From: Escherichia coli O127:H6 str. E2348/69
GTDB lineage: Bacteria; Pseudomonadota; Gammaproteobacteria; Enterobacterales; Enterobacteriaceae
Assembly: GCF_000026545.1 (NCBI RefSeq)
Contig: NC_011601.1
Direction: 5' to 3' (one strand)
DNA length: 64,000 nucleotides
A program made the position numbers. Below, in pieces: positions 31,301 through 34,300 of the stretch (position 1 is the stretch's first letter; every line of letters begins with the position of its first letter).

Positions 31301-34300
31301 GATTACGGCGATGCTGGTGCGTTGAGTTTCTCCTACATGTGGACCAACGAATACAAAGCACCGTGGCATCTGGAAATGGATGAGTTTTATCAGAATGATA
31401 AAACCACCAAAGTTGATTATCTACACTCCCTTGGGGCGAAGTACGACTTCAAAAATAACTTCGTACTGGAAGCGGCGTTTGGTCAGGCCGAAGGGTATAT
31501 CGATCAATATTTTGCCAAAGCAAGCTACAAATTTGATATCGCCGGTAGCCCGTTAACCACCAGCTACCAGTTCTATGGTACGCGCGATAAAGTTGACGAT
31601 CGCAGCGTCAACGATCTTTATGACGGCACCGCCTGGCTGCAGGCGTTGACCTTTGGTTACCGGGCGGCTGACGTAGTGGATTTGCGCCTCGAAGGTACCT
31701 GGGTTAAGGCTGACGGTCAGCAGGGATACTTCCTGCAACGTATGACTCCAACCTACGCTTCCTCGAACGGTCGCCTGGATATCTGGTGGGATAACCGTTC
31801 TGACTTCAACGCCAACGGCGAAAAAGCGGTCTTCTTCGGTGCGATGTATGACCTGAAAAACTGGAATCTTCCAGGCTTCGCCATCGGCGCTTCCTACGTT
31901 TACGCATGGGATGCTAAACCTGCGACCTGGCAGAGCAATCCGGATGCGTACTACGACAAAAACCGGACTATTGAAGAGTCTGCCTACAGCCTGGATGCGG
32001 TGTACACCATTCAGGACGGTCGCGCCAAAGGCACGATGTTCAAACTGCACTTCACCGAATATGACAACCACTCCGACATCCCAAGCTGGGGCGGCGGTTA
32101 CGGTAACATCTTCCAGGATGAGCGCGACGTGAAATTTATGGTAATCGCACCATTCACCATCTTCTGATGCCCGACGCGGCAGGTTTTGTGCCTGCCGCAC
32201 GTTTGAGGAATTTGCTATGAAAAAACTGATTCTCATCGCCATGATGGCATCGGGGCTGGTAGCTTGTGCGCAATCAACCGCACCGCAGGAAGACAGTCGT
32301 CTGAAAGAGGCTTACAGCGCCTGTATCAACACCGCGCAAGGTTCGCCGGAAAAAATTGAAGCCTGCCAGAGCGTGTTAAACGTGCTGAAGAAAGAGAAAC
32401 AACATCAGCAGTTTGCCGAGCAGGAAAGTGTCCGCGTACTGGATTATCAGCAGTGTATTCAGGCAACGCAAACCGGAAATGATCAGGCGGTGAAAGCCGA
32501 TTGTGATAAGGTCTGGCAGGAAATTCGCAGTAATAACAAATAAGTGAGAGCTGTAACTCTCGCTTTTCTTATTTCCCTTATATAAAAAAGCCAACCCGTA
32601 GGTTGGCTTTTCTCGTTCAGGCTGGCTTATTTGCCTTCGTGCGCGTGCTCATCTTCGCGGCAATCGCCTTCGGCACAGTGACCGTAAAGATAGAGACTGT
32701 GGTTAGTCAGGCGAATGCCATGTTTTGCGGCAATTTCACGCTGACGCGCTTCGATGGAATCATCACTAAATTCGATAACCTTACCGCAGTCGAGGCAGAT
32801 CAGGTGATCGTGGTGATGTTGCTGTGTCAGTTCAAATACGGATTTACCGCCTTCAAAATTGTGGCGGGTGACGATACCAGCGTCGTCAAACTGGTTCAGT
32901 ACGCGATATACCGTAGCCAGACCAATTTCTTCACCCATATCGATCAGACGTTTGTATAAATCTTCCGCACTGACGTGATGGTTGTCCGGCTCCTGAAGAA
33001 CTTCCAGGATTTTCAAGCGAGGAAGCGTTACTTTCAGGCCAGCTTTCTTTAGGGCGGTATTGTTATCAGTCATGCGGAATCTGTCCTGTTACTAAGCGGT
33101 TCACTTCATTAGAAGAAGTGACAGAATTTGCTCTTGAGATAATGCGTATCATTATAGAATTGCCACGCCTAAATGAAAACCACAAGTCCCTGGCAAATAT
33201 TGTTAATAAAAACGTGGCACAGCTTACATTTACAACGGCAAGGCCACTTGAACACCGGGACATTGTACAGGTACAACAGCAAAAGTTACAAATTTGTAGC
33301 AATTATTTTGATTGGCATTATCTATTAATACGGCGTAGACATGAGTCTACGCCGCATCACATCAGGCATTGAGAATTTCGTCGAGATGCAGCTCTTCAGA
33401 AATCTGTTTAACCCATTTTTCTACACGTTCAGCGGTCAGTTCCGGCTGACGGTCTTCGTCGATAGCCAGACCGACAAAGTGGTCATCATCAGCCAGACCT
33501 TTTGATGCTTCGAAGTGGTAGCCCGCGGTTGGCCAGTGACCAACGATAGTTGCGCCGCGCGGTTCAATGATGTCGCGGATGGTGCCCAATGCATCGCAGA
33601 AGTATTCTGCGTAATCTTCCTGGTCGCCACAACCAAACAGCGCAACCAGTTTGCCATTAAAATCAATCTCTTCGAGAGTCGGGAAGAAGTCATCCCAGTC
33701 ACACTGCGCTTCGCCGTAATACCAGGTTGGGATGCCCAGCAGCAGAATGTCATATGCTTCCAGATCTTCTTTGCTGCTTTTTGCAATGTCATGGACATCG
33801 GCAACGTCTTTACCAAGCTGTTTTTGAATCATTTTTGCGATATTTTCGGTATTACCGGTGTCGCTGCCGAAAAAGATGCCAGTGATAGCCATGAGTGAAA
33901 TAACCTCTTGAAACTTATTGAAATGGGGGTGGAAAATTGCCCACGGATAAAGGCAATCATAGCAGAACAGGCAGTCTTGCGGAATCAGCAAACGAGCAGG
34001 ACTGCACACTGTGCTACATGAAAGTGGAAATTTAAACGATGCCCTGACTACGCAGCGCCGCCAGTTGCTGCATTAACATCTCTTCGATCAGCTCGCTACG
34101 GCTCATATTGCGCGATTCCGCCAGCTCGTTCAGTGCCTCGACAGCTTCCGCGTTCAGCTTCAGTTCGACACGCTTAAGGCCACGTACTTTGTCGCGTTTT
34201 AGTTGGTTGCGTTTATTTATACGCAGCTGTTCATCGCGCGAAAGCGGATTAGTTTTCGGTCGTCCCGGTCGACGCTCGTGCGCGAACAGATCTAATGTCG

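What the first reader, a model, noticed from the sequence alone, without database searches (positions are those of the whole stretch)
33066..33160. uof-fur translational coupling with an overlapping Fur box
The 28-codon uof ORF ends with a TGA overlapping the fur ATG region, and a Fur-box-like sequence (ATAATGATACGCATTATC on the coding strand) overlaps the uof start at 33138-33155. This is the classic post-transcriptional and autoregulatory architecture, intact here.
Basis: partly seen in the sequence, partly recalled or inferred. Interest (0 to 1): 0.25.

Follow-up and report, generated by a model that had tools for sequence, protein, structure and literature searches.

The report
Known E. 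coli uof-fur leader
This is the textbook control region in front of the E. coli iron-regulator gene fur (a 28-codon leader reading frame called uof plus a Fur binding site), base-for-base identical to the laboratory strain K-12, so it is real but ordinary and already described.

Summary
On the minus strand a 28-codon ORF (33152-33066, MIRIISRANSVTSSNEVNRLVTGQIPHD) overlaps fur (33073-32627) by 8 nt (ATGACTGA). A 16/19 Fur box (33156-33138) covers its ATG. The window is E. coli E2348/69. The whole fldA-fur intergenic region is 100% identical to K-12 MG1655, where this ORF is the annotated gene uof (b4637). The peptide passes the NCBIfam 'fur leader peptide' model. A 127-bp stretch covering the promoter, uof and the fur start is at least 99% identical in 5096 of 5424 complete E. 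coli genomes.

The interpretation (translational coupling plus Fur autoregulation) matches the published model. One refinement, also already published: the Fur box coincides with a perfect TATAAT -10 hexamer whose last two bases are the A and T of the uof ATG. Transcripts from that Fur-repressed promoter therefore start inside uof. Only longer transcripts (upstream promoter TTGTAA-18-TACAAT, or read-through from fldA) carry the uof start.

Across 120 Enterobacterales species, the promoter/operator, a leader hairpin and the fur ribosome-binding region are conserved as nucleotides. The uof frame and peptide are not. Verdict: already known, low interest.

The parts
33066..33152 (-). uof, the 28-codon fur leader ORF (MIRIISRANSVTSSNEVNRLVTGQIPHD, stop TGA)
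   Evidence: Translation is identical to K-12 b4637. RefSeq annotates it as 'uof fur leader peptide'. NCBIfam NF011344 scores 85.2 bits against a cutoff of 71.
32627..33073 (-). fur CDS (148 aa ferric uptake regulator)
   Evidence: ORF. NCBIfam NF006999 scores 309 bits against a cutoff of 146. Annotated as WP_000131702.1.
33066..33073 (-). 8-nt uof/fur overlap ATGACTGA (fur ATG 33073-33071, uof TGA 33068-33066)
   Evidence: Read directly from the sequence. Annotated coordinates agree. The stretch ACAGGACAGATTCCGCATGACTGA is invariant or nearly invariant in 30 Enterobacteriaceae leaders.
33138..33156 (-). Fur box TATAATGATACGCATTATC (16/19 to consensus), covering the uof ATG
   Evidence: Unique hit in 64 kb and 0 of 100 shuffles. 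Described in the literature as Fur boxEc overlapping the Pfura -10. A Fur ChIP-exo peak is assigned to the uof,fur unit in strain KO11FL.
33151..33179 (-). Proximal promoter Pfur: -35 TTTTCA (33179-33174), 17-nt spacer, -10 TATAAT (33156-33151). The expected start lies about 33146-33142, inside uof.
   Evidence: Promoter scan gives 10/12. The literature places Pfur within the uof ORF. GTTTTCA and TTCTATAATG are conserved across Enterobacterales.
33262..33291 (-). Upstream promoter Puof: TTGTAA, 18 nt, TACAAT. It is the nearest promoter whose transcript carries the uof AUG.
   Evidence: Promoter scan. The same hexamers are listed as the constitutive uof-fur promoter in PMC3946193. Conserved out to Yersinia and Pantoea.
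33119..33133 (-). RyhB pairing region GAGCAAAUUCUGUCA (uof codons 7-11), complementary to RyhB nt 37-48 including G44 and C45
   Evidence: Best duplex within uof is -12.1 kcal/mol. The G44C/C45G mutations are reported to abolish repression of uof and fur. The energy is not better than shuffles (67 of 200).
33135..33137 (-). uof codon 6, UCA, the reported MiaB-dependent (iron-responsive) decoding point
   Evidence: Read directly from the sequence. Role taken from PMC11448259, which cites Vecerek 2007.
33102..33120 (-). Conserved leader hairpin CACUUC, 7-nt loop, GAAGUG (uof codons 11-17)
   Evidence: -5.9 kcal/mol, z = -3.8, 0 of 200 shuffles. An equivalent hairpin is predicted in all 30 aligned leaders, with loops of about 3-7 nt and some compensatory changes.
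33326..33359 (-). Strong stem-loop just after the fldA stop codon, with no U tract. It marks the 3' end of fldA and is compatible with read-through into uof-fur.
   Evidence: -26 kcal/mol, z = -6.9. Not called as an intrinsic terminator. ybfE-fldA-uof-fur co-transcription is reported in PMC4161252.
32584..32613 (-). fur intrinsic terminator (GC-rich stem followed by a U run)
   Evidence: -23.8 kcal/mol, z = -5.4.

Best explanation
This is the canonical E. coli fur control region and is unchanged from K-12.

1. Transcription. Fe-Fur binds the 19-bp box at 33156-33138. The box coincides with the -10 hexamer TATAAT of the proximal promoter Pfur, so Fur occludes RNA polymerase and produces weak negative autoregulation. 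Pfur transcripts start a few bases downstream, inside uof.

2. Longer transcripts. These come from the constitutive upstream promoter (TTGTAA-18-TACAAT, 33291-33262) and from fldA/ybfE read-through, and they carry the full 28-codon uof.

3. Translation. Ribosomes translating uof terminate at UGA 33068-33066, 2 nt past the fur AUG. They pass through the weak fur ribosome-binding region (AGGA, 10 nt from the AUG), so Fur synthesis follows uof translation by termination-reinitiation or unmasking.

4. Iron limitation. RyhB pairs at uof codons 7-11 and blocks uof translation. UCA codon 6 is read poorly when the Fe-S enzyme MiaB is inactive. Both effects lower Fur synthesis.

Shown here: identity, coordinates, motif statistics and conservation. 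Taken from the literature: Fur binding, the coupling, the RyhB effect and the MiaB effect. My inference: reinitiation rather than strong structural unmasking.
For: - The window is 100% identical to K-12 across the fldA-fur intergenic region and the fur start.
- The peptide is identical to b4637.
- RefSeq annotates uof and fur with an 8-nt overlap.
- NF011344 'fur leader peptide' scores above its cutoff.
- The Fur box is unique in the window and absent from 100 shuffles.
- The -35/-10 pair scores 10/12, with the TATAAT overlapping the box.
- The literature states the coupling, RyhB, MiaB and autoregulation model, and that Pfur lies within uof while Puof lies upstream.
- A Fur ChIP-exo peak falls on the uof,fur unit.
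- RyhB nt 37-48, including G44 and C45, are complementary to uof codons 7-11.
- Both Shine-Dalgarno sequences are weak, -3.6 and -4.0 kcal/mol.
- The 127-bp promoter-plus-uof stretch is at least 99% identical in 5096 of 5424 E. coli genomes.
Against: - Nothing contradicts the identification.
- The predicted RyhB duplex (-12.1 kcal/mol) is no better than shuffled targets (67 of 200). A stronger predicted site lies upstream at 33282-33250. The pairing site therefore rests on published mutagenesis, not on my computation.
- The fur ribosome-binding hairpin is weak and not significant (-5.2 kcal/mol, z = -0.8), so structural masking is not supported by folding alone.
- The Pfur transcript lacks the uof AUG, so coupling cannot explain Fur synthesis from that isoform.
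- uof shows no third-codon-position excess (variable sites 11/11/12 for positions 1/2/3, against 2/0/11 in fur). Its frame is not kept in Salmonella arizonae, Klebsiella, Yersinia and others.
- The primary papers (Vecerek 2007, Zheng 1999, de Lorenzo 1988) were not readable here.
Confidence: 0.93

Rival explanations
1. uof is not a selected coding gene. It is an accidental ORF over regulatory nucleotides. Its ATG exists because the -10 and Fur box read TATAATG, and its C-terminus exists because it runs through the conserved fur ribosome-binding region. On this reading the coupling matters little for Fur output in vivo, because the main Fur-controlled transcript lacks the AUG.
For: - There is no codon-position periodicity (11/11/12 variable sites, against 2/0/11 in fur).
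- Conservation falls into three nucleotide blocks: promoter/operator, hairpin, and fur ribosome-binding region.
- Only 26 of the 73 leaders that have a TATAATG 48-93 nt upstream of the fur ATG keep the E. coli-type frame. The others stop early, change frame, or read into or through the fur start.
- There is no usable Shine-Dalgarno sequence before the uof AUG.
- Pfur starts inside uof.
Against: - Published experiments in K-12 on the identical sequence report translation of uof and loss of Fur synthesis when uof translation is blocked (cited).
- Within the uof-like group, length varies by whole codons (28 or 29), which preserves the overlap.
- Seven further species keep a leader ORF that ends in an ATGA overlap with fur in another frame. 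This suggests selection for some ORF that terminates at the fur start.
- Leader peptides commonly lack amino-acid conservation.
Confidence: 0.05
2. uof is a transcription-attenuation leader peptide of the trpL/hisL type. Ribosome position on uof would choose between terminator and antiterminator hairpins ahead of fur.
For: uof appears in the EcoCyc list of 'leader peptides' alongside trpL, hisL and others. There is a conserved hairpin inside the leader.
Against: - No terminator-like site (stem plus U run) lies between the uof start and fur.
- The conserved hairpin is followed by GAACCGCUUAGUA, not by a U tract.
- uof overlaps fur by 8 nt, which leaves no room for an attenuator.
- The literature describes translational coupling, not attenuation.
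Confidence: 0.01

Closest known systems
E. coli K-12 uof-fur (b4637/b0683): RyhB-regulated fur leader peptide with translational coupling (Vecerek, Moll & Blasi 2007, as cited in PMC7534054, PMC6191717 and PMC11448259)
   Same: Everything that can be tested is the same. The DNA is 100% identical from the end of fldA into fur. The peptide is the same. The 8-nt overlap, the UCA codon 6, the RyhB-complementary stretch and the annotation also match.
   Different: Nothing differs in sequence. The host strain is EPEC E2348/69 rather than K-12.
Fur autoregulatory operator of the fur promoter (de Lorenzo et al. 1988; 'Fur boxEc overlaps the Pfura -10', PMC7867234)
   Same: The 19-bp box is 16/19 to consensus and coincides with the -10 hexamer TATAAT.
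   Different: None.
fur leaders of other Enterobacterales (Salmonella arizonae, Klebsiella/Raoultella, Cedecea, Buttiauxella, Yersinia, Serratia, Pantoea)
   Same: They share the -35 GTTTTCA, the TATAATGAnACGCA -10/Fur-box core, the fur ribosome-binding region ACAGGAC..CCGCATGACTGA and the upstream TACAAT promoter. The Enterobacteriaceae also share the leader hairpin.
   Different: The ORF that starts at the TATAATG differs between groups:
- 16 codons, stopping 27 nt before fur (Salmonella arizonae).
- 14 codons, followed by a second short ORF overlapping fur (Klebsiella/Raoultella).
- Another frame with an ATGA overlap (Cedecea, Mangrovibacter).
- In frame with fur (Buttiauxella, Dryocola).
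- Only 4 codons (Yersinia, Serratia, Pantoea). This agrees with PMC7867234, which says uof is absent in Y. enterocolitica.

Membership tests
uof / fur leader peptide (NCBIfam NF011344, EcoCyc b4637) | Short ORF immediately upstream of fur on the same strand, whose peptide matches the family model | tested here: met
   NF011344 equivalog scores 85.2 bits against a cutoff of 71, over positions 1-28 of 28. The peptide is identical to K-12.
uof / fur leader peptide (NCBIfam NF011344, EcoCyc b4637) | Stop codon overlapping the 5' end of fur (ATGACTGA, 8-nt overlap) | tested here: met
   Read from the sequence. Annotated coordinates agree: uof 1769-1855 and fur 1848-2294 in L001.
uof / fur leader peptide (NCBIfam NF011344, EcoCyc b4637) | fur translation depends on uof translation | not testable with these tools
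   This is an experimental property. It is reported for the identical K-12 sequence. Consistent observations here are the weak fur Shine-Dalgarno sequence with 10-nt spacing and the overlap geometry.
uof / fur leader peptide (NCBIfam NF011344, EcoCyc b4637) | RyhB pairing site in the 5' part of uof that involves RyhB G44 and C45 | tested here: inconclusive
   Complementarity is present at 33133-33119 with RyhB nt 37-48, at -12.1 kcal/mol. The energy is matched by 67 of 200 shuffles. Support comes from the published G44C/C45G mutant.
uof / fur leader peptide (NCBIfam NF011344, EcoCyc b4637) | UCA serine codon at position 6 (MiaB-dependent decoding) | tested here: met
   Codon 6 is TCA at 33137-33135. 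Role taken. The codon is CCA in the Enterobacter and Leclercia uof-like ORFs.
Fur operator (Fur box) | Close match to the 19-bp inverted repeat GATAATGATAATCATTATC | tested here: met
   16/19 match, a single hit in 64 kb, and 0 of 100 shuffles.
Fur operator (Fur box) | Overlaps core promoter elements, so that Fur binding excludes RNA polymerase | tested here: met
   The box at 33156-33138 contains the -10 TATAAT at 33156-33151 of a 10/12 promoter. The literature says the same.
Fur operator (Fur box) | Bound by Fe-Fur in vivo or in vitro | not testable with these tools
   The literature gives a ChIP-exo peak assigned to uof,fur in KO11FL and cites autoregulation. The original footprint paper was not readable here.
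Transcription-attenuation leader peptides (trpL type) | Intrinsic terminator between the leader ORF and the structural gene | tested here: not met
   No terminator-like site lies between 33152 and 33073. The ORFs overlap.

The most novel reading that the evidence does not exclude
The uof reading frame is an Escherichia/Citrobacter/Enterobacter-lineage overlay on three older, nucleotide-conserved elements: the Fur-box/-10 TATAATG, a leader hairpin with a variable loop, and the fur ribosome-binding region. Because the Fur-repressed promoter fires inside uof, E. coli makes two classes of fur mRNA. One is uof-coupled. The other lacks the uof start codon but keeps the RyhB site, and it must be translated independently of uof. 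The balance between the two isoforms, rather than coupling alone, would then set Fur output. The isoform fact is already published. The comparative view of frame turnover may be only partly described.
Probability: 0.4. Interest if true: 0.3.

Novelty: already known. Interest (0 to 1): 0.08.

Why it matters
Fur is the master iron regulator, and its leader is a textbook case of sRNA control through an upstream ORF. Finding it intact in an EPEC strain only confirms that the circuit is core and essentially invariant in E. coli. The only mildly useful additions are these:
- The Fur box belongs to a promoter that initiates inside uof.
- The uof peptide and frame are not conserved outside a subset of Enterobacteriaceae. 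This cautions against transferring the K-12 coupling model unchanged to Salmonella, Klebsiella or Yersinia.

Tried and rejected
- Full-length RyhB-versus-leader duplex folding gave unrealistically long duplexes that were no better than shuffles. I replaced it with the RyhB core (nt 30-62) against sliding windows. Even then the published site is not the best in the intergenic region and is not significant.
- My first frame analysis of relatives used the wrong offset. It is corrected.
- The MAFFT alignment A2 places the hairpin arms in inconsistent registers because loop lengths differ. I therefore did not run the count of structure pairs and used per-sequence folds instead. Those folds are biased towards pairing.
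- The primary papers were not held: Vecerek 2007, Zheng 1999 and Seo 2014. The Conway 2014 supplements with start-site coordinates were not held either. The exact transcription start positions are therefore inferred from the -10 position and from secondary citations.
- Rfam found nothing in the leader. The only hits in the window were tRNAs.
- Transcription attenuation was considered and rejected because there is no terminator.
- Folding of the fur ribosome-binding region gave no significant masking structure.

Full report
**What is in the sequence**

Everything here is on the minus strand. Reading 33900-32300 gives fldA (33892-33362), a 209-nt spacer, a 28-codon ORF (ATG 33152-33150 to TGA 33068-33066) and fur (33073-32627). 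The short ORF translates to MIRIISRANSVTSSNEVNRLVTGQIPHD. Its last eight bases, ATGACTGA, are shared with fur. The TGA therefore sits 2 nt after the fur ATG and not on it.

With the preceding T it matches the 19-bp Fur consensus at 16 of 19 positions. It is the only match with 3 or fewer mismatches in the 64-kb window, and none appeared in 100 dinucleotide-preserving shuffles. A 28-codon ORF is not itself unusual, because 57 ORFs of at least 20 aa overlap this 3.5-kb stretch. The case for the ORF rests on comparison with other genomes.

**Identity**

- The window is E. coli E2348/69, 100% identical over 861 bp. The same locus is present in 5424 of 5426 complete E. coli genomes.
- RefSeq annotates 'uof: fur leader peptide' and fur with an 8-nt overlap, both in E2348/69 and in K-12 MG1655 (b4637/b0683).
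- The 341 bases from the end of fldA into fur are 100% identical to K-12, and the peptides are identical.
- The peptide passes the NCBIfam equivalog model NF011344 'fur leader peptide' (85.2 bits, cutoff 71). Fur passes NF006999.
- A 127-bp stretch covering the promoter, the operator, uof and the fur start is at least 99% identical in 5096 of 5424 genomes.

**How it works: the published model**

I could not open Vecerek et al. 2007, Zheng et al. 1999 or de Lorenzo et al. 1988. The mechanism below comes from papers that cite them.

- fur translation is coupled to that of uof.
- RyhB blocks uof translation initiation and so lowers Fur synthesis. RyhB G44C/C45G abolishes this effect.
- UCA codon 6 needs a MiaB-modified tRNA-Ser, which makes decoding iron-responsive.
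- Fur autoregulates, and OxyR and SoxS activate.

What I checked in the sequence:

- Codon 6 is TCA at 33137-33135.
- The best RyhB duplex inside uof pairs GAGCAAAUUCUGUCA (33133-33119, codons 7-11) with RyhB nt 37-48, which include G44 and C45, at -12.1 kcal/mol.
- That energy is matched by 67 of 200 shuffled targets, and a stronger predicted site lies upstream at 33282-33250. My computation is therefore consistent with the published site but does not establish it. PETcofold's authors likewise reported that the published RyhB-uof interaction is not predictable.
- Both Shine-Dalgarno sequences are weak, -3.6 kcal/mol for uof and -4.0 for fur, and the fur AGGA lies 10 nt from its AUG.
- The small hairpin over the fur ribosome-binding region is not significant (-5.2 kcal/mol, z = -0.8).
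- From these points I infer that coupling works mainly through ribosomes terminating 2 nt past the fur AUG and reinitiating there, and less through the opening of a strong masking structure. This step is inference.

The promoter scan finds -35 TTTTCA (33179-33174), a 17-nt spacer and a perfect -10 TATAAT (33156-33151), scoring 10/12. The Fur box starts at the same base as this hexamer. The last two bases of the hexamer are the A and T of the uof ATG.

A start about 5-9 nt downstream of the hexamer falls at roughly 33146-33142, which is inside uof. The literature agrees. [quoted passage not shown] The upstream promoter is the second scan hit, TTGTAA-18-TACAAT at 33291-33262. The same hexamers are listed as the constitutive uof-fur promoter in a genomic SELEX study. 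RNA-seq also shows ybfE-fldA-uof-fur co-transcription from three promoters. This fits the strong stem-loop after fldA, which has no U tract (33359-33326, -26 kcal/mol).

So the Fur operator controls a transcript that lacks the uof AUG but still carries the RyhB site. uof-dependent coupling can apply only to the longer isoforms. This is already published and is not new. A Fur ChIP-exo peak assigned to the uof,fur unit appears in the supplementary data of the Fur pan-regulon study.

**Comparative check**

Results:

- TATAATG lies 48-93 nt upstream of the fur ATG in 73 of the 120 loci (70-93 nt in all but one).
- In 26 loci the ORF starting at that ATG is E. coli-like, with 28 or 29 codons ending in ATGACTGA. 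These are Escherichia, most Citrobacter, the Enterobacter cloacae complex, Leclercia, Pseudescherichia, Superficieibacter, Siccibacter, Pluralibacter, Pseudocitrobacter, Kluyvera and Phytobacter.
- In 14 loci the ORF stops 15-36 nt before fur. Examples are Salmonella arizonae (16 codons) and Klebsiella/Raoultella (14 codons, with a second ATG giving MEVDRLATGQIPHD* that overlaps fur).
- In 7 loci it uses another frame and ends in an ATGA overlap (mainly Cedecea and Mangrovibacter).
- In 6 loci it reads into or through the fur start. In 5 (Buttiauxella, Dryocola, Cedecea colo and an Enterobacter sp.) it is in frame with fur. In the sixth (Enterobacter asburiae) fur codon 2 is ACA, so the uof TGA stop is lost.
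- In 20 loci it is only 4-5 codons long (Yersinia, Serratia, Pantoea, Mixta). This agrees with the statement that uof is absent in Y. enterocolitica.

An alignment of 30 Enterobacteriaceae leaders shows three conserved nucleotide blocks: GTTTTCA (-35), TTCTATAATGAnACGCATTAT (-10 plus Fur box) and ACAGGACAGATTCCGCATGACTGA (fur ribosome-binding region).

Between these blocks lies a hairpin. In the window it is CACUUC, a 7-nt loop, GAAGUG at 33120-33102 (-5.9 kcal/mol, z = -3.8, 0 of 200 shuffles). An equivalent hairpin is predicted in all 30 leaders, with loops of about 3-7 nt and a few compensatory changes (Siccibacter, strain LSJC7, Shimwellia). The variable loop length is what shifts the reading frame between genera.

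Among 15 distinct 28-codon uof sequences, variable sites split 11/11/12 across codon positions 1/2/3. In the first 20 fur codons of the same genomes the split is 2/0/11. I therefore see no sign of selection on the uof amino-acid sequence. Conservation is at the level of DNA and RNA signals, which is what one expects if the act of translation matters and not the peptide.

**Alternatives considered**

- A pure 'accidental ORF' reading is contradicted by the published K-12 experiments on the identical sequence. Whole-codon length changes within the uof-like group also argue against it, as do the other genera that keep some ORF ending at the fur start.
- A trpL-type attenuator is excluded. There is no terminator between uof and fur, and the two ORFs overlap.

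**Verdict**

The feature is the already-known uof-fur leader with its Fur operator, identical to K-12. Novelty: already known. Interest: low.

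Noticed in passing
window 10156-10749 (-): The tRNA cluster has six genes: Met, Leu(UAG), Gln(UUG) twice, Met, and Gln(CUG) once. K-12 carries two tandem Gln(CUG) genes, glnX and glnV, at the end of the same cluster. This strain therefore appears to have one fewer Gln-CUG copy.
   Followed up: partly
window 33102-33120 (-); L005-L121 leaders in alignment A2: A leader hairpin inside uof (CACUUC, loop, GAAGUG) is predicted in all 30 Enterobacteriaceae leaders examined. Its loop length varies (about 3-7 nt) and there are a few compensatory stem changes. The loop indels change the upstream ORF's frame between genera. I could not read any paper that describes its function.
   Followed up: partly
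window 33262-33325 (-): The upstream uof-fur promoter region is conserved as far out as Yersinia and Pantoea. It contains a perfect 12-nt palindrome, TACAAATTTGTA (33298-33287), across its -35. Just upstream is a stretch (about 33325-33288, ATAGATAATGCCAAT..ATTGCTACAAATTTGT) that from memory resembles the OxyR motif. This was not tested against a matrix or footprint data.
   Followed up: partly
L121 (Salmonella arizonae), L072/L097/L111 (Klebsiella/Raoultella), L088/L109/L123 (Buttiauxella, Dryocola): In these relatives the ORF that starts in the TATAATG does not overlap fur as it does in E. coli. In Salmonella arizonae it stops 27 nt upstream of fur. In Klebsiella and Raoultella it stops 36 nt upstream, and a second 14-codon ORF overlaps fur. 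In Buttiauxella and Dryocola it is in frame with fur and would give an N-terminally extended Fur if translated.
   Followed up: partly
window 33326-33359 (-): A very stable 15-bp stem-loop (-26 kcal/mol, z = -6.9) lies immediately after the fldA stop codon and has no U tract. Its position is conserved in relatives while the stem sequence varies. It is probably an mRNA 3'-end or stability element that permits read-through into uof-fur.
   Followed up: no
window 33103-33111 (-): A three-codon mini-ORF, AUG AAG UGA, sits in the +1 frame relative to uof, within the loop and 3' arm of the leader hairpin. In Salmonella arizonae and Citrobacter sp. Awk 4 a 1-nt deletion puts this ATG AAG TGA in frame, so that it terminates their leader ORF.
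   Followed up: no
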